Origin: Octopus vulgaris
Taxonomy: Eukaryota
DNA: 64,000 nucleotides
Assembly (NCBI GenBank): GCA_951406725.2
Contig: OX597814.1
Span: 22,568,001-22,632,000, forward strand
Direction of reading: 5' to 3'
Numbering within the stretch: position 1 is the stretch's first letter; every line of letters starts with the position of its first letter. Below, one piece after another: positions 26,002 through 60,663 of the stretch. Both the position numbers and the translations under genes were made by a program. The notes below the pieces were generated by a model. It worked only from the letters and a program-made list of their open reading frames with translations, did not search any database and was not told the DNA's origin.

Positions 26002-26894
26002 TGGGCTTTCGACTTTATAAAATGTTGAGAAATCATATCTATTTATCATGTTTGTTTCAGATAACGAAACGTAGGTTGATTATTCGATTGACTTACATAT
26101 TTGTATTCTTAAGACATAAATATATTCATTTTCATGCAAATTGAGATCTATACACCCTAAGAAATATTTTCTAATTTTTGAAAGCCTTATTAGTTGTTGA
26201 TAAGTTACTAAGATGAAACTAATTTTTGCATCATTGATTGTCCATATATTCGAATTATCATGCAAAAGAATTCTTTCATCAAAGTTAATTTAAGAAAACT
26301 GTGTAACTGTAAAGTATCAAGTAAAATAATGAAACATTCATACAGAATTAGTTACGCTGTTTCATGGTCACTAGATTGTAAATATCAACAGAAAAGATTA
26401 CTAAAGGCTAGACACAGTTAATACCTTCCAACAAATATATGATAGATGAGGCAGGAAGTAGAGATGGCGCATGTAGTAGGAAAAATATCGATCATATGTG
26501 GTCAATGGTAGTTGTGCGAAAACTACTGTTTCTGAAATAACATTGTTGAACAAAATATTTATATTTTTTGTTTAGGTTGAAAATCATATTAAAGACTACG
26601 ACTAGGTCCAAGGTTAATACAAGTTTTTGATTGGAAGCTATTCAGTTCATGGTTTTTGTCAGGAAGTATGGGGATTACTTCAGAAAAATGGCAAATCATA
26701 GAAGGAAATCATGTCGACTCTTTGTGCAGAAACGAACATTTACTAACTTTTCAAGATGTAATTTCCTGTAAGTAATTGATGACAGCAATCATACTCAAAA
26801 TAATGACCTTAATTTACATAGAATCATTGACTAGAGGTTTGGGTTTGAATCAAAACACTTTAAAATAATTCAAAACCACTTCAAGTTCCTTCAG

Positions 26895-27345
26895 TCGCGA
26901 TTTGAGCTTATGATGCCGGTAGATAATGTTGGAACAGTGGTGGTGTGGCGTGCGTACCTGTTCAAGGAGGAAGCGCTCCGTCAGCTTCGGAACCCCATAT
27001 TCTATCGCCTCCTCCCCTCCGACCTCACCCTCTCCAACCAGCAGTGTGTGCACTCCACCATCCATGATCTCGTCTCATCTTCTGCTCCTCCTACTGCCAC
27101 CAACCTCATCGCCGGAACACACCGTACCTCGATATCTATTTCCTTTCCAAAATATACAAACCCTACATCCCCGGCCGTCACATTATTTCCACCTGTAACT
27201 ACCCCACAGAATTCATCTCCAAATATCTCGACCTCATACTTTCCTCTCTAGTCGCTACTCTCCCGTCTCATACATATGACACCAGCCCTTCACTTCTTCA
27301 ATTCATTTTCCTTCCCTCCCGGTCCTTCACGCCTCTTTTTCACTA
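26895..27345 (+). mobile_element. Penelope-like RT N-terminal fragment (pseudogene)
   Basis: PVDNVGTVVVWRAYLFKEEALRQL..FY..LPSDLT (compare PADKG..VV), then after a frameshift IYFLSKIYKPYIPGRHIISTCNYPTEFISKYLD (compare LPK.HK...P.RPI.S). Confidence 0.88.
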
Positions 27346-27688
27346 TATACATGAACATTTAGGTATATAGATATATAGACATACTAATTATAGAATATAG
27401 ATAAAAATAATAGTGCTAGATAAAAAAAAAACGTTTTTAAAAATATTTTAAATATAGTATAGTAATAGACATCAATAAGAGTTTTGGAGTTACATGTTAG
27501 AAGAGTACACTCTATTTTGGGGTACTCTATTTCTTCATGTAACCCAAAACTCTTATTAATGCCTATTACTATACCATATTTTAAATCTTTTTAAAAAACG
27601 GTTTTTTTTTCTATATTCCACTATTATATTTATCTATATTCTATTATTAGTATGTTTATATATCTATATACCTATATGTCCATGTATA
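27345..27688. repeat. Foldback, ~165-bp imperfect arms
   Basis: 27345-27509 is approximately the reverse complement of 27523-27688; abuts the PLE RT fragment. Confidence 0.85.
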
Positions 27689-40100: not shown

Positions 40101-40103
<3 letters not shown>

Positions 40104-41508
40104 TCTGAACTAAATGCACGTAACAAGGTGTTAGCTATAAATTCCTTAGCAGTTCCAGTTGTTACTTATAGCTACAATGTGTTGAACTGGAATATGAGTG
40201 AAGTAAAGAATATAGACAGGAAAATACGCAAGCTGCTGAGTTGTAATAGGATGCACCACCCAAAGGCAGACGTAGATCGCCTTTACCTTCCCAGAGCCCA
40301 AGGAGGTCGAGGCCTGATCCAATTTGAACAAGCTTACAAAACAACCACAATTGGACTGGCCAAATATCTTGAAATAACGAATGACTGGATGCTAAAGCTC
40401 GTGGAAAATCACGAGAGACGAAAGAAGCTTCATTCTATCATAAAGGAAAGCAAAAAAATTGCTATTGATCTCGTGCAGGATACCCAAACTGAACAACCCG
40501 AGGGAAGTACGGCAACTATTGTTGCAAAGAAGGTGAAAATAATGGCAACGAAAAAAGCGCACGAGCAATTGGCTGATAGGTGGGAGGAGAAACCTCTGCA
40601 CGGCAAATATGTGGCCCGTAGCAAACAAGCTGATGTTGACCAGAAGCAAACCCATCAGTGGCTACGGAGCTCAGGGCTAAAAGCAGAGAGCGAAGGTTTC
40701 ATCCTGGCTGCTCAAGATCAAAGCCTATTAACCCGGAACTACCAGTCCAATGTAATGAAAAATGGAGCAGACCCAAAATGCCGATTCTGCAATGACATGA
40801 TTGAAACAGTGGACCACCTAATCTCTGGATGTAAAGTCTTAGCACCAGTGGAGTATAAATTAAGACATGACAGAGTTGGCCAATATCTACACTGGCTAAT
40901 AAGTCGGCATTACAATATCAAAACTGCCGACAAGTGGTATAATCACCACCCTGAAGCTGTAACTGAAGGAGAAAGTGTAACGATTCTGTGGGACTTTCCA
41001 GTACATACAGACCGAACCATCAAAGCCAATAAACCAGATATTGTTGTGAAAGACAAAAACAATAAAGTTTGCTTATTGATCGACATGAGCATCCCCTGTG
41101 ATCATAATATCTCGGCGTAAGAGTTTGACAAGCTCAGAAAATATAAAGACCTGCGCGTTGAAATTGAGAAAATGTGGCATCTCAAGGCGGTTACAATACC
41201 AGTGATCGTAGGAGCACTAGGAATGATCAAGAAGGGAACCGAAAATTATATGAGAATGATCCCTGGCTTACCATCCCTGCAAGAAGTGCAAAAGATTGTC
41301 TTAAATGGTACATCACACGTATTGAGAAGAGCATTGTTGCTGTGAGAACTATTACTACCCATGTAGTAATAGTTTTTTAACTTTAAAAAAAAAATGAACG
41401 AACTATTGAGTTTAGTTTAATGGCCTACCAATGTATACTATGAGTTTCTTTGCCCTAGGAGTCGGGAAGACACTCGGCAAGAAATGGAAGCAAATTTGAA
41501 AGAAGAAG
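40101..41508 (+). mobile_element. 5'-truncated R4/Dong-type RLE LINE inserted in (TAA)n
   Basis: ORF 40128..41120: RLYLPRAQGGRGL, EGFILAAQDQ, CRFC..ETVDHLISGC, RHD, KPDIVV..LIDMSIP. One premature TAA at 41118-41120, then in-frame KYKDL..GALG to TGA at 41345. (TAA)n on both sides. Confidence 0.96.
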
Positions 41509-49494: not shown

Positions 49495-49537
<43 letters not shown>

Positions 49538-49540
49538 ATA

Positions 49541-49975
49541 ATAAAAGGCTAAAATTAATTAATTATTAATTAATTTTACCAAGTAGTGTTCAGTATGTAA
49601 GAAGAGCAATTTACGGTATATTTAAAACATTACGTTATATAATTACGGTTCAGTAAAATAATTTAGTTTACCACACACTGAACTTTTAGAAATAGCAGCC
49701 AAAAAATCTTAGCTATTTCTTCTACTATAAGCTGACGAAGGAAATGTTGATCTTTAAATTCAACTAATCTAGAAACGTACGTTCTCAAGTTATCTTATGC
49801 TCATGTGATCTTTTGTTATTTTTCCCTCCATACCTACGTGAATTATTTTTGAGTATACCTTGTCTGGGAGATTTTTCTTATAGTAGAAGAAATAGCTAAG
49901 ATTTTTTGGCTGCTATTTCTAAAAGTTCAGTGTGTGGTAGAGTAAATTATTTTACTGAATCCTAATTATATAACG

Positions 49976-49979
<4 letters not shown>
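49541..49979 (+). mobile_element. Diverged solo relative of the 562-bp unit, with an inverted terminus
   Basis: 49731-49979 is colinear with the unit from 55752 onward; 49631-49731 is the reverse complement of 49877-49977; embedded in (TA)n. Confidence 0.85.
49729..49786 (+). ncRNA. Hammerhead motif, probably inactive (GUU triplet, truncated stem I)
   Basis: CTGACGA 49732-49738; a-gga-aat-gttga-loop-tcaac-taa-tct-a; GAAA 49772-49775; palindrome ACGTACGT. Confidence 0.75.
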
Positions 49980-50030
<51 letters not shown>

Positions 50031-52819: not shown

Positions 52820-53240
<421 letters not shown>

Positions 53241-53404
53241 GTAAAGAAATTCACTTTACCACACACCGAACTTTTCAGAAATAGCAGCCAAAAATTTGGC
53301 TATTTCTTCAACTGCAAATAAAAGTCTCCAGACAATGCATACTCAGAAAATAACTCACATAGGTATAAGGGAAAAACAATGAAAGATCACATCCATATAA
53401 GATA

Positions 53405-53466
53405 CCCGAGGACAGCCTGTTTCTGGATTCGTGGGTTAAACGCCACTTTTCCTTCATCAGCTCAGA
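53405..53466 (-). ncRNA. Type I hammerhead motif, unit 1
   Basis: tctgag-CTGATGA-a-gga-aaa-gtgg-loop-ccac-gaa-tcc-a-GAAA-caggctg-TC-ctcggg; predicted cut between 53411 and 53410. Confidence 0.82.
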
Positions 53467-53966
53467 GATTTCTTCTGATTTAGATTTGAAAATACTAAGA
53501 ATCAAACATACCCGTCCGATATCTGTAACATCGGACAAACCATGCCAGACAACCAGTACTAGCGAATCCAAGAATACAAATGAGATCTATTATTCTCCCT
53601 GTCCACCCACGTGAGTCATAGAGTAGTACATTCCTACAGAGGCAAAAACTGTAGTTCAAATTCTTGGAGAGAAAGCATTATATTGTCAGTAAAAAAGGGG
53701 TAGAATTAATTAATTGTTAATCAATTCGACCAAGCAGTATTCGGTATGTAAAAAGACCATTTACGGTATATTTGAAGTATTAATTTATAAAAATATGGTA
53801 AAGTAAAAAAATTCACTTTACCACACACCGAACTTTTCAGAAATAGCAGCCAAAAATTTGGCTATTTCTTCAACTGCAAATAAAAGTCTCCAGACAATGC
53901 ATACTCAGAAAATAACTCACATAGGTATAAGGGAAAAACAATGAAAGATCACATCCATATAAGATA

Positions 53967-54028
53967 CCCGAGGACAGCCTGTTTCTGGATTCGTGGGTTA
54001 AACGCCACTTTTCCTTCATCAGCTCAGA
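53967..54028 (-). ncRNA. Type I hammerhead motif, unit 2
   Basis: Identical to unit 1. Confidence 0.82.
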
Positions 54029-54528
54029 GATTTCTTCTGATTTAGATTTGAAAATACTAAGAATCAAACATACCCGTCCGATATCTGTAACATCGGACAA
54101 ACCATGCCAGACAACCAGTACTAGCGAATCCAAGAATACAAATGAGATCTATTATTCTCCCTGTCCACCCACGTGAGTCATAGAGTAGTACATTCCTACA
54201 GAGGCAAAAACTGTAGTTCAAATTCTTGGAGAGAAAGCATTATATTGTCAGTAAAAAAGGGGTAGAATTAATTAATTGTTAATCAATTCGACCAAGCAGT
54301 ATTCGGTATGTAAAAAGACCATTTACGGTATATTTGAAGTATTAATTTATAAAAATATGGTAAAGTAAAAAAATTCACTTTACCACACACCGAACTTTTC
54401 AGAAATAGCAGCCAAAAATTTGGCTATTTCTTCAACTGCAAATAAAAGTCTCCAGACAATGCATACTCAGAAAATAACTCACATAGGTATAAGGGAAAAA
54501 CAATGAAAGATCACATCCATATAAGATA

Positions 54529-54590
54529 CCCGAGGACAGCCTGTTTCTGGATTCGTGGGTTAAACGCCACTTTTCCTTCATCAGCTCAGA
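54529..54590 (-). ncRNA. Type I hammerhead motif, unit 3
   Basis: Identical to unit 1. Confidence 0.82.
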
Positions 54591-55092
54591 GATTTCTTCT
54601 GATTTAGATTTGAAAATACTAAGAATCAAACATACCCGTCCGATATCTGTAACATCGGACAAACCATGCCAGACAACCAGTACTAGCGAATCCAAGAATA
54701 CAAATGAGATCTATTATTCTCCTTGTCCACCCACGTGAGTCATAGAGTAGTACATTCCTACAGAGGCAAAAACTGTAGTTCAAATTCTTGGAGAGAAAGC
54801 ATTATATTGTCAGTAAAAAAGGGGTAGAATTAATTAATTGTTAATCAATTCGACCAAGCAGTATTCGGTATGTAAAAAGACCATTTACGGTATATTTGAA
54901 GTATTAATTTATAAAAATATGGTAAAGTAAAAAAATTCACTTTACCACACACCGAACTTTTCAGAAATAGCAGCCAAAAATTTGGCTATTTCTTCAACTG
55001 CAAATAAAAGTCTCCAGACAATGCATACTCAGAAAATAACTCACATATAGGTATAAGGGAAAAATAATGAAAGATCACATCCATATAAGATA

Positions 55093-55154
55093 CCCGAGGA
55101 CAGCCTGTTTCTGGATTCGTGGGTAAAACGCCACTTTTCCTTCATCAGCTCAGA
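55093..55154 (-). ncRNA. Type I hammerhead motif, unit 4
   Basis: As unit 1, with one change in the stem II loop. Confidence 0.82.
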
Positions 55155-55746
55155 GATTTCTTCTGATTTAGATTTGAAAATACTAAGAATCAAACATACC
55201 CGTCCGATATCTGTAACATCGGACAAACCATGCCAGACAACCAGTACTAGCATTCCTACAGAGGCAAAAACTGTAGTTCAAATTCTTGGAGAGAAAGCAT
55301 TATATTGTCAGTAAAAAAGGGGTAGAATTAATAAAGTGGCGTTTAACCCACGAAATTTTTGGCTGCTATTTCTGAAAAGTTCGGTGTGTGGTAAAGTGAA
55401 TTTTTTTACTTTACCATATTTTTATAAATTAATACTTCAAATATACCGTAAATGGTCTTTTTACATACCGAATACTGCTTGGTCGAATTGATTAACAATT
55501 AATTAATTCTACCCTTTTTACTGACAATATAATGCTTTCTCTCCAAGAATTTGAACTACAGTTTTTGCCTCTGTAGGAATGTACTACTCTATGACTCACG
55601 TGGGTGGACAGGGAGAATAATAGATCTCATTTGTATTCTTGGATTGCACATCTGCAACGGGAGTTGGACGCAATATACAGGAGTGCTGACGGCAACAACA
55701 TGTATGTTTGATTCTTAGTATTTTCAAATCTAAATCAGAAGAAATC

Positions 55747-55808
55747 TCTGAGCTGATGAAGGAAAAGTGGCGTTTAACCCACGAATCCAGAAACAGGCTG
55801 CCCTCGGG
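55747..55808 (+). ncRNA. Hammerhead motif in the inverted arm, cleavage triplet mutated (GUC to GCC)
   Basis: CTGATGA 55753-55759; C at 55801 replaces the conserved U16.1. Confidence 0.75.
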
Positions 55809-56083
55809 TATCTTATATGGATGTGATCTTTCATTGTTTTTCCCTTATACCTATGTGAGTTATTTTCTGAGTATGCATTGTCTGGAGACTTTTATTTGCA
55901 GTTGAAGAAATAGCCAAATTTTTGGCTGCTATTTCTGAAAAGTTCGGTGTGTGGTAAAGTGAATTTTTTTACTTTACCATATTTTTATAAATTAATACTT
56001 CAAATATACCGTAAATGGTCTTTTTACATACCGAATACTGCTTGGTCGAATTGATTAACAATTAATTAATTCTACCCCTTTTT

Positions 56084-56155
<72 letters not shown>

Positions 56156-59060: not shown

Positions 59061-59107
59061 AAAGTGGAAAGATACGACTAATAATGTTAAAATATCTTAA
59101 TAATAAC

Positions 59108-59166
<59 letters not shown>

Positions 59167-60663
59167 GGCATTCAGAGATGAAGGAAAGGATCAGGAGAGA
59201 ATGCTATCGTAGAGTGAGAGCAATACTCAAGACAGAGCTGAATGCAAGAAACAGGATCGAAGCGATCAATGCATTAGCCATACCAGTCGTGACTTACAGT
59301 TTCAATATCGTTAACTGGTCAATTACTGAAATATGTCAGCTCGACAGAAAAATAAGAAAACTGTTGACAATGCATAGAATGCATCACCCTAAGGCAGATA
59401 CAGAACGACTTTATCTGCCAAGAAAAGAGGGAGGCCGTGGTCTTTTGCAACTGGCAGTAACAATGAAGATTGCTACAATTGGCCTAGACACCTACCTGAA
59501 AAAGTCTGAGGACTGGATGTTAAAACTTGTCTCAAAACATGAAAACAAGAAAGCATCATACTCAGTAACAAATCAGGCAAAGGAATATCTAAGTGAATTC
59601 CGAATACAACCAATTTCGGAATTAGAGATAGACATACAAGAAACAATCACAGAAAAAGCTAGGCGCATGAAAACCCGTGCCCAAACTGCGGCCTTAGATA
59701 TTCTGAATAATAAATGGCAAGAAAAACCTCTCTATGGCAAATACCCAAAGAGAGCGAATAATGCAGATATTGACAAAGCCCTGACCCATCAATGGCTAAT
59801 GGCCTCTGGCTTAAAATCTGAAACAGAGGGGTTTATCATAGCAGCTCAAGATCAATGCCTACCAACAAGAAACTACCAGGCCGACATATTAAAGAACGGC
59901 AGTAGCCCAACATGTCATGTATGCCGACAACAAAATGAAACCATTGATCATGTTGTCTCCAAATGCAGTCTTCTAGCGCCTACAGAGTACCTCAACAGGC
60001 ATGATAGAGCTGCACAATATATTCACTGGGTAATTTGCTAAAACCTGGATTTGCCACATGAAAAAAACTGGTGGGAACACAATCCACCTCCAGTGCTTGA
60101 AAATGACCACATCTCACTCCTCTGGAACTTCACCATTCAAACTGACAGAAAGATAGATGCAAATAGGCCAGACATAATATTGAAAGACTTCAGACAAAGA
60201 ACATGTCTCCTCATTGATATGACTGTCCCAATCGATATAAACGTATCTGTCAAGACCTACCAAAAACTGAGCAAATATAAAGATCTTGAAATAGAAATCA
60301 GCAGAATGTGGAAGCTGAAGACTAAAACAATACTTGTTGTCATAGGTGCCCTGGGAATGATAGCGAAAGGGACTGATTGCTACCTAACTCAGATACCAGG
60401 AAACCCCAAACTGGCAGAAATTCAAAAGATAGTGCTCATAGGAACTGCTCATATCCTACGCAAAATACTCTCTATGTAATCCCAAGGTTTAAAACAAACT
60501 TTTTTTTATGTATTAGACATTCACTAGTACAACACCAAAAAAGCCCCAAATATATGGAACACTAGGCATAACAACAACGTGAACTTCCAACCTGTTGTCT
60601 CTTGAGGTCTCTGGGTGAGACTTGGAGCCATCTTGTACAGACATAAAGCAAAAGTCAAACATA

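What the first reader, a model, noticed from the sequence alone, without database searches (positions are those of the whole stretch)
55646..55701. Swappable ~55-nt cassette in the ribozyme repeat; one version reads as a CR1 reverse-transcriptase fragment
Seen: between the same flanks (ttcttggatt ... gtatgtttgatt on the HHR strand), units 1-3 carry a 53-nt segment (e.g. 53512-53564) while the inverted unit carries an unrelated 56-nt segment. The latter translates AHLQRELDAIYRSADGNNM, matching the CR1 RT motif present in this window as ARLQRDLNSIYKWNEVNSI (~24800). The 53-nt version reads RPISVTS on the plus strand (compare LINE YRPISLTS) and folds as gtccgat/atcggac. Inferred: the element acquires short pieces of other retroelement RNAs at a fixed position, probably by template switching. 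Speculatively, the array could act as a store of foreign TE snippets.
Basis: partly seen in the sequence, partly recalled or inferred. Interest (0 to 1): 0.75.

Follow-up and report, generated by a model that had tools for sequence, protein, structure and literature searches.

The report
One-off LINE patch in ribozyme repeat
One copy of a young repeat carrying a predicted self-cutting RNA motif has 53 of its own letters replaced by a 56-letter piece of an unrelated, older jumping gene; every other copy seen keeps the native letters, so this is likely a single slip of the copying enzyme and not a swappable cassette.

Summary
The sequence observation holds. In the inverted unit of a 562-nt hammerhead repeat, 55646-55701 replaces the 53-nt segment of units 1-3. 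The 56-mer is a LINE reverse-transcriptase fragment (up to 52/56 identical, E 5e-17), in the ribozyme's sense, with microhomology at both joints.

The cassette reading fails. Of 169 flank-anchored copies genome-wide, 155 were displayed: 154 carry the native segment and only this one carries the LINE piece. The 53-mer shows no LINE similarity (RPISVTS is chance); it is the tip of the unit's predicted rod-shaped RNA. The patched unit has a damaged cleavage triplet and no second whole ribozyme in its arm, so it is likely a dead end.

Most likely cause: a double template jump during synthesis of this Penelope-style insertion, which has two other jumps (0.55). Rivals: later break repair (0.22) or an assembly patch (0.2). 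No exact donor is in the assembly, and the piece belongs to an old LINE subfamily, not the intact one.

The scan has noted related retrozyme families in this genome before; its index holds no note on such a capture.

The parts
53238..56087 (.). Whole insertion of the 562-nt hammerhead repeat: a direct arm of 3 full and 1 partial units (ribozyme on - strand) and an inverted arm (ribozyme on + strand), between (TA)n tracts
53238..53799 (-). Unit 1 (1 difference from unit 2)
53800..54361 (-). Unit 2, used as reference (q1-562 on the ribozyme strand); predicted rod fold, z -5.86
54362..54923 (-). Unit 3 (1 difference from unit 2)
54924..55251 (-). Partial unit 4, q237-562; ends at an internal jump from q237 to q171
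55252..55333 (-). Rest of the direct arm after the jump (about q170 down to q89), ending at the inversion point
55333..55354 (+). 22-nt piece of the unit's own ribozyme stem II (q351-372) at the inversion point: a second internal jump (q503 to q372)
55353..56087 (+). Inverted arm: q503-562, q1-235, LINE patch, q289-562, q1-112
55646..55701 (+). 56-nt LINE reverse-transcriptase fragment replacing q236-288; differs from the majority of 11 LINE copies at 55682, 55684, 55690, 55692
55643..55645 (+). 3-nt microhomology (ATT) shared by unit and LINE at the left joint
55702..55712 (+). Right joint: 1 exact shared base and an imperfect match (8 of 11, one gap) to the LINE sequence that follows the fragment
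53512..53564 (-). Native 53-nt segment, unit 1 (q236-288): left arm and apical hairpin of the rod tip
54074..54126 (-). Native 53-nt segment, unit 2
54636..54688 (-). Native 53-nt segment, unit 3
55200..55251 (-). 52 of the 53 native bases in partial unit 4
53967..54028 (-). Type I hammerhead-like motif of unit 2 (CUGAUGA core, GAAA, GUC triplet), read by eye; same motif at 53405-53466, 54529-54590 and 55093-55154
   Evidence: no Rfam hammerhead match
55747..55808 (+). Hammerhead-like motif of the patched unit, with GCC in place of GUC at 55800-55802; the only GCC among 122 copies

Best explanation
One inverted unit of a young hammerhead-repeat insertion has its native 53-nt hairpin segment replaced by a 56-nt sense-strand piece of an old LINE, likely through a single double template jump while the insertion was being copied. 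Shown: the replacement, its LINE origin and orientation, microhomology at both joints, two further jumps inside the same insertion, and the absence of any other foreign segment at this site. Inferred: a Penelope-type reverse transcriptase copying the repeat RNA 3' to 5' paused at q289, the bulge at the base of the predicted 12-bp apical hairpin; its cDNA end annealed to an 8-of-11 match in a transcript (or exposed DNA strand) of an old LINE copy, copied 56 nt, and returned to the repeat at q235 through ATT. The product is likely a dead end: its arm has one whole ribozyme only, and that one has GCC at the cleavage triplet.
For: LINE origin: (RVT_1, 30.2 bits against a cut-off of 29.6, for copy L034). 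Same sense as the ribozyme strand. Microhomology: the right joint scores in the top 0.5-5% and the exact 3-nt left match in the top 1-2% of 1200 positions in each of 4 LINE copies. Jump-prone synthesis: this insertion also jumps q237 to q171 and q503 to q372; 8 of 77 loci show internal deletions, duplications or self-templated patches of 8 nt or more, counted by eye. One template molecule: all units here, the inverted one included, share a C at q228 that no other listed copy has, and units 1-3 differ by 1 base each. Penelope-style footprint: 33 of 77 loci have an inverted arm and 65 of 77 have microsatellite on both sides (PMC8557442 passages). Double jumps are described for LINEs (PMC2104539 section 8). 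One-off: 154 of 155 displayed copies native; 98 of 99 aligned copies in 69 loci; exact 33-mer of the patch found once.
Against: No donor was found: no other match within 2 mismatches of the 3' 31-mer, the 4 other hits of two shorter motifs are not LINE copies, and none lies in the window or in 10 kb upstream and 50 kb downstream. The fragment fits an old subfamily (pairwise identity 84%; 50-52/56) better than five identical copies with open frames over 1000 codons (47/56), so an active LINE mRNA is not the obvious template. The near-equal lengths (53 out, 56 in) are not predicted by a jump. Sense orientation has a 1-in-2 chance. The wider 12-nt left context is not unusual (12-37% of positions score as well). 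The 4 private differences cluster in 11 nt (P 0.016) and 3 of them match the native segment in one alignment register, which hints at mixing of the two sequences.
Confidence: 0.55

Rival explanations
1. Repair patch made after insertion: the array is a long inverted repeat with internal hairpins, broke near q236-288, and was mended by microhomology-guided synthesis from a distant old LINE copy (DNA or RNA template).
For: Microhomology at both joints fits this as well. The donor is an old subfamily, not the intact one. Inverted arms of 395 nt at 99% lie close together; long inverted repeats are break-prone (recalled). Distant templated insertions at breaks are described in yeast (PMC11724301, abstract). 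Clustered errors suit an error-prone repair polymerase (recalled).
Against: The array is very young (1 difference per unit), which leaves little time. The same arm holds another jump that is best read as made during synthesis. A DNA donor should be in the assembly and none is.
Confidence: 0.22
2. Assembly or polishing artefact: the patch, or at least its four private bases, was written by consensus calling in a hard inverted repeat.
For: No donor for the exact sequence. First 36 nt equal the LINE majority, then 4 differences in 11 nt, 3 matching the native segment. Near-equal lengths. The arm and unit 4 hold more differences than units 1-3.
Against: The native segment has no significant local similarity to the LINE loci, so LINE reads have no evident way to be drawn to this place (inference). 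The array keeps a private base (q228) in every unit, so it was not homogenised towards the family. 15 natural LINE copies with the same anchors differ from the majority at 0-3 of these 11 positions, so 4 is only just outside their range. A milder form, a real capture with a few bases altered by native-type reads, is compatible with the best explanation.
Confidence: 0.2
3. One reading: a fixed slot that takes up and swaps pieces of other retroelements, making the array a store of foreign TE snippets.
For: One foreign segment of near-equal length sits between intact flanks. A second jump in the same insertion ends 1-2 nt from the left joint.
Against: 154 of 155 displayed copies native, no third type. 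The native segment is not LINE-derived and pairs with sequence outside the slot: 98% of 1512 cells paired; 21 of 23 transition types keep the pair against 67% expected, P 0.007. The patch weakens the rod tip from -33.2 to -18.3 kcal/mol and has not spread.
Confidence: 0.03

Closest known systems
Tripartite chimeric retrogenes from double template jumps (Magnaporthe WEIRD/Mg-SINE/MGL; mouse B2/U6/L1; PMC2104539, abstract and section 8 read)
   Same: Pieces of different retroelement sequences joined in one insertion, in the same sense, explained by two jumps of the reverse transcriptase.
   Different: Here the enzyme would leave and return to the same template, skipping 53 nt; the piece is internal and only 56 nt; the carrier is a hammerhead repeat with a Penelope-style footprint, not a LINE; no target-site duplication can be read in (TA)n.
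LINE-1 chimeric insertions with small RNAs, Alu and mRNA pieces (bioRxiv 10.1101/2025.02.02.635956, abstract and outline seen)
   Same: Occasional uptake of unrelated RNA sequence by a retrotransposition event.
   Different: There L1 is the carrier and the foreign part lies next to it; here a LINE is the passenger inside a non-coding repeat.
Metazoan non-LTR retrozymes (PMC7229834, passages; bioRxiv 10.64898/2026.07.22.740005, part 1 of 5)
   Same: Dispersed tandem non-coding units, each with a type I hammerhead-like motif, proposed to be moved by Penelope-like elements.
   Different: The unit is 562 nt, above the 170-400 nt of expressed retrozyme RNAs given in PMC7229834; cleavage and circles are untested here; foreign capture was not mentioned in the parts read.
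Templated insertions at DNA breaks from distant loci (PMC11724301, abstract seen)
   Same: Short foreign segment from a distant locus with microhomology at the joints.
   Different: Here the patch sits in a very young retro-insertion that has other jumps, and it replaces a near-equal length.

Membership tests
   154 of 155 displayed flank-anchored copies native; 14 of 169 not displayed but bounded; 98 of 99
   score 28 against shuffled mean best 25.1, maximum 32; pairs with flanking unit sequence
   exact 33-mer found once; its unit has GCC at the cleavage triplet, 1 of 122
   no raw-read RNA run was offered
Double-template-switch chimera | Parts come from different elements, in the same sense | tested here: met
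Double-template-switch chimera | Joints formed within one insertion event (one target-site duplication around the whole) | tested here: inconclusive
   (TA)n on both sides hides a duplication; shared private base q228 and other jumps fit one event
Double-template-switch chimera | Donor is a transcript | not testable with these tools
   donor copy not found; old subfamily
LINE reverse transcriptase (CR1 group) as donor | RT domain with YADD in frame upstream of the fragment | tested here: met
   translations; RVT_1 above cut-off for L034
LINE reverse transcriptase (CR1 group) as donor | Placement in the CR1 clade by RT phylogeny | not tested
   the label CR1-group is recalled from motifs; no tree was built
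Non-LTR retrozyme | Tandem units, each with a type I hammerhead motif | tested here: inconclusive
   core pattern kept in 116 of 122 copies, but no Rfam hammerhead match at gathering score or at E up to 10, and the motif does not form in full in the predicted folds
Non-LTR retrozyme | Non-coding, dispersed, multicopy | tested here: met
   no ORF of 100 aa or more in the array; 2186 candidates, 118 matches among 40 scored
Non-LTR retrozyme | Monomer of about 170-400 nt (described range) | tested here: not met
   562 nt; range from PMC7229834 abstract; a described range, not a strict criterion
Non-LTR retrozyme | Self-cleavage and circular RNA | not testable with these tools
   needs a bench assay; rod fold z -5.86 is only suggestive
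Penelope-like insertion footprint | 5' truncation, partial tandems, inverted 5' arm, microsatellite targets | tested here: met
   33 of 77 loci with an inverted arm, 65 of 77 with microsatellite on both sides; features from PMC8557442
Penelope-like insertion footprint | Shared pLTR with an autonomous Penelope-like element | not tested
   no search for the partner element was made

The most novel reading that the evidence does not exclude
The Penelope-type enzyme that copies hammerhead RNA circles can leave its template at a hairpin, copy a short stretch of an unrelated cellular transcript and land back on the same circle, here perhaps at a nick near q236 where the other arm also jumped. Ribozyme circles would then sample host RNA at roughly one insertion in a hundred, a genomic record of the modular recombination proposed for viroid-like RNAs, with structure-breaking captures such as this one left as dead ends.
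Probability: 0.35. Interest if true: 0.45.

Novelty: new member of a known kind. Interest (0 to 1): 0.22.

Why it matters
As it stands it is one scar in one copy, with no sign of function. If real and made during insertion, it shows that the still uncharacterised Penelope-type copying reaction can jump to an unrelated template and back through short microhomology, and it names a substrate (the q229-321 hairpin plus a LINE RNA) for an in vitro test. It does not support an immune-like store of TE pieces. Searches for a printed case in retrozymes or Penelope-like elements (listings only) showed none, but double jumps are known for LINEs.

Tried and rejected
Sequencing runs: 24 listed, no RNA holder on record, all kept as contigs. 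Seven runs were laid (X1, X2, X3, X6; X4, X14, X5, X2). No listed contig bridges either joint of the patch or the other joints of this insertion, and 55690-55699 had no cover. Contigs drop rare variants, many records were not shown, and the insertion may be absent from those animals, so this is no evidence either way.

Donor hunt: exact 33-mer, 31-mer with 2 mismatches, two shorter motifs, anchored 11-nt catalogue, neighbourhood: none found. The window's own LINE at ~24800 rejected as donor. The intact young LINE subfamily rejected as donor (47/56).

RPISVTS as a LINE remnant rejected. Covariation of the rod tip: only 1 of 36 pairs has a two-sided change and the shuffle control is not exceeded (256 of 500 for the score); the support is one-sided changes only, and the structure was derived from one of the aligned sequences. 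Rfam found no hammerhead. The fold of 55702-55860 alone is not more stable than shuffles (z -0.33). Other foreign patches inside units: none in 66,611 aligned columns of 77 loci. One search timed out with no output and was redone. The 77 loci are the top hits and lean to young copies; the loci were not all fetched. No paper supplements were read.

Full report
1. Observation. The window holds an insertion of a 562-nt repeat at 53238-56087 between (TA)n tracts. Positions q1-562 below count along unit 2 on the strand that carries the hammerhead-like motif. The direct arm has three full units, each within 1 base of unit 2, and a partial fourth; the inverted arm runs q503-562, q1-235, a 56-nt foreign segment, q289-562, q1-112.

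2. The 56-mer is a LINE piece. A genome search gave 338 candidates, 40 scored, best non-self E 5e-17. Of 14 fetched copies, 11 align without an indel at 50-52/56 and 3 have a small indel; most read ...YADDTK...AHLQRELDAIYRWAEDNNMQFN... in frame. Copy L034 passes the Pfam RVT_1 cut-off. The label CR1-group is recalled from these motifs; no tree was built. The piece lies in the same sense as the ribozyme strand. The window's own LINE at ~24800 shares only 31 of 47 nt. The matching subfamily is old (mean pairwise identity 84% over 55 pairs, 3' of the piece). A young subfamily with open frames over 1000 codons exists, but five such copies, identical here, match only 47/56.

3. The site is not a variable slot. 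Two disjoint flank-anchored patterns found 55 and 114 copies. All 55 and 100 of the 114 were displayed: 154 of 155 carry the native segment with point changes or small indels, and 1 of 155 is this copy. A third pattern asking for any base but C after the left flank found 2 places: this one and a point variant of the native segment, which bounds the 14 not displayed. By alignment, 98 of 99 copies in 69 loci are native, and no other foreign patch appears in 66,611 aligned columns of 77 loci. The exact central 33-mer occurs once.

4. The 53-mer is native and structural. It has no DNA similarity to the LINE loci, which include their YRPISLTS region: best score 28 against a shuffled mean best of 25.1 and maximum 32. 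The unit folds into a long rod (-163.5 kcal/mol, z -5.86, 0 of 100 shuffles) whose tip is q229-321; the 53-mer forms the left arm and the 12-bp apical hairpin and pairs with q290-309 outside the supposed slot. Across 42 copies (a chosen set of mostly distinct variants) 98% of 1512 cells pair; 19 of 36 pairs vary on one side only, 1 on both, and the shuffle control is not exceeded. Of 23 transition types 21 keep the pair, against 67% expected (P 0.007), and 9 of 10 changes shared by 5 or more copies keep it. This fits selection on the fold but is not proof by covariation. The patch raises the tip's energy from -33.2 to -18.3 kcal/mol, though the whole patched unit still folds well (z -5.36).

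5. The carrier. The hammerhead-like core pattern is kept in 116 of 122 copies; Rfam gives no hammerhead match, so the motif is read by eye and its activity is predicted only. The patched unit is the only one of 122 with GCC for GUC at the cleavage triplet; U at that position pairs in the core (recalled), and its arm holds no second whole ribozyme, so the patched monomer likely cannot be released. Of 77 loci, 33 have an inverted arm and 65 have microsatellite on both sides, with recurring 3' ends near q33 and q121 and variable 5' truncation. This is the footprint described for Penelope-like elements (PMC8557442, passages), and animal retrozymes are argued to be their non-autonomous derivatives (10.64898/2026.07.22.740005, part 1 of 5; PMC7229834, passages). 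Earlier notes of this scan read related 359-, 485- and 490-nt families the same way; they came after this analysis and are not support. None concerns a captured fragment.

6. Mechanism. Shown: ATT is shared at the left joint (top 1-2% of positions) and an 8-of-11 imperfect match at the right joint (top 0.5-5%) in 4 LINE copies; the wider left context is unremarkable. The insertion has two more jumps: q237 to q171 in the direct arm, and q503 to q372 at the end of the inverted arm. Internal deletions, duplications or self-templated patches of 8 nt or more are seen in 8 of 77 loci (L014, L029, L053, L071, L080, L084, L106 and the window; read by eye). All units here share a C at q228 found in no other listed copy, which fits one template molecule. 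Inferred: the enzyme making the inverted arm paused at q289, at the base of the apical hairpin, moved to an old LINE sequence, copied 56 nt and returned at q235. Double jumps are described for LINEs (PMC2104539, abstract and section 8), and L1 chimeras with many RNAs are catalogued (10.1101/2025.02.02.635956, abstract). I give this 0.55.

7. What does not fit. No donor is in the assembly, although an old copy should usually be fixed (inference). The piece equals the majority of 11 copies for 36 nt, then differs at 4 of 11 positions (P 0.016 for such clustering); 15 natural copies differ at 0-3 there; 3 of the 4 bases match the native segment in one register. The donor may be on the other haplotype, the bases may be synthesis errors, or consensus calling may have altered them. 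Together with the near-equal lengths, this leaves later break repair (0.22; PMC11724301, abstract) and an assembly patch (0.2) open. I do not know how the assembly was made. The public runs could not decide the point.

8. Verdict. A real-looking, single chimeric scar in a retrozyme-like repeat; a new instance of a known kind of event, in a carrier for which my searches (listings only) showed no printed case. The swappable-cassette and snippet-store readings are refuted within this assembly. Interest 0.22; the boldest reading left open, capture of host RNA by ribozyme circles through out-and-back jumps, has probability about 0.35 and would merit about 0.45.

Noticed in passing
window 55251-55252 and 55645-55646: The jump in direct unit 4 leaves the template at q237 and the patch in the inverted arm returns at q235, so the two arms lack adjacent stretches (q172-236 and q236-288). 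A nick in one RNA template near q236 would explain both; single case, and 5' truncation points of other copies show no clear peak there.
   Followed up: partly
L053:2995-3056 (G000:C2, near 126160700): The 5' end of this copy (q376) abuts 62 nt from the end of another abundant microsatellite-targeting repeat (257 candidates, about 90% identical), followed by (TA)n; in one copy of that repeat (L118) a hammerhead-like core lies on the opposite strand. It may be a two-armed insertion whose arms come from two different RNAs, or plain nesting.
   Followed up: partly
L072:1935-2330: A 396-nt repeat has inserted into a unit near q20; its ends resemble Helitron-derived elements (recalled). It matches a flank of L036 at 93% over 289 nt.
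   Followed up: no
window 49535-49980: A shorter relative of the 562-nt unit (about 81-82% identical in two blocks), between (TA)n tracts, with a 103-nt inverted arm and a hammerhead-like core reading CUGACGA at about 49733.
   Followed up: no
L048:2630-2700: A variant of the family carries a short tandem repetition of a 16-nt motif near q150; a similar loose end appears in run X6.
   Followed up: no
L130-L134: A young LINE subfamily with open frames of 1015-1145 codons and identical sequence over the 56-nt region in five copies; likely recently active.
   Followed up: partly
window 26835-27370: Broken reading frames that resemble a Penelope-type reverse transcriptase by recalled motifs; Pfam gave no hit for 26835-27248.
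   Followed up: partly
window 40101-41120 and 59091-60479: Two related non-LTR retrotransposon C-terminal fragments; the second has a weak zf-RVT hit below cut-off.
   Followed up: no
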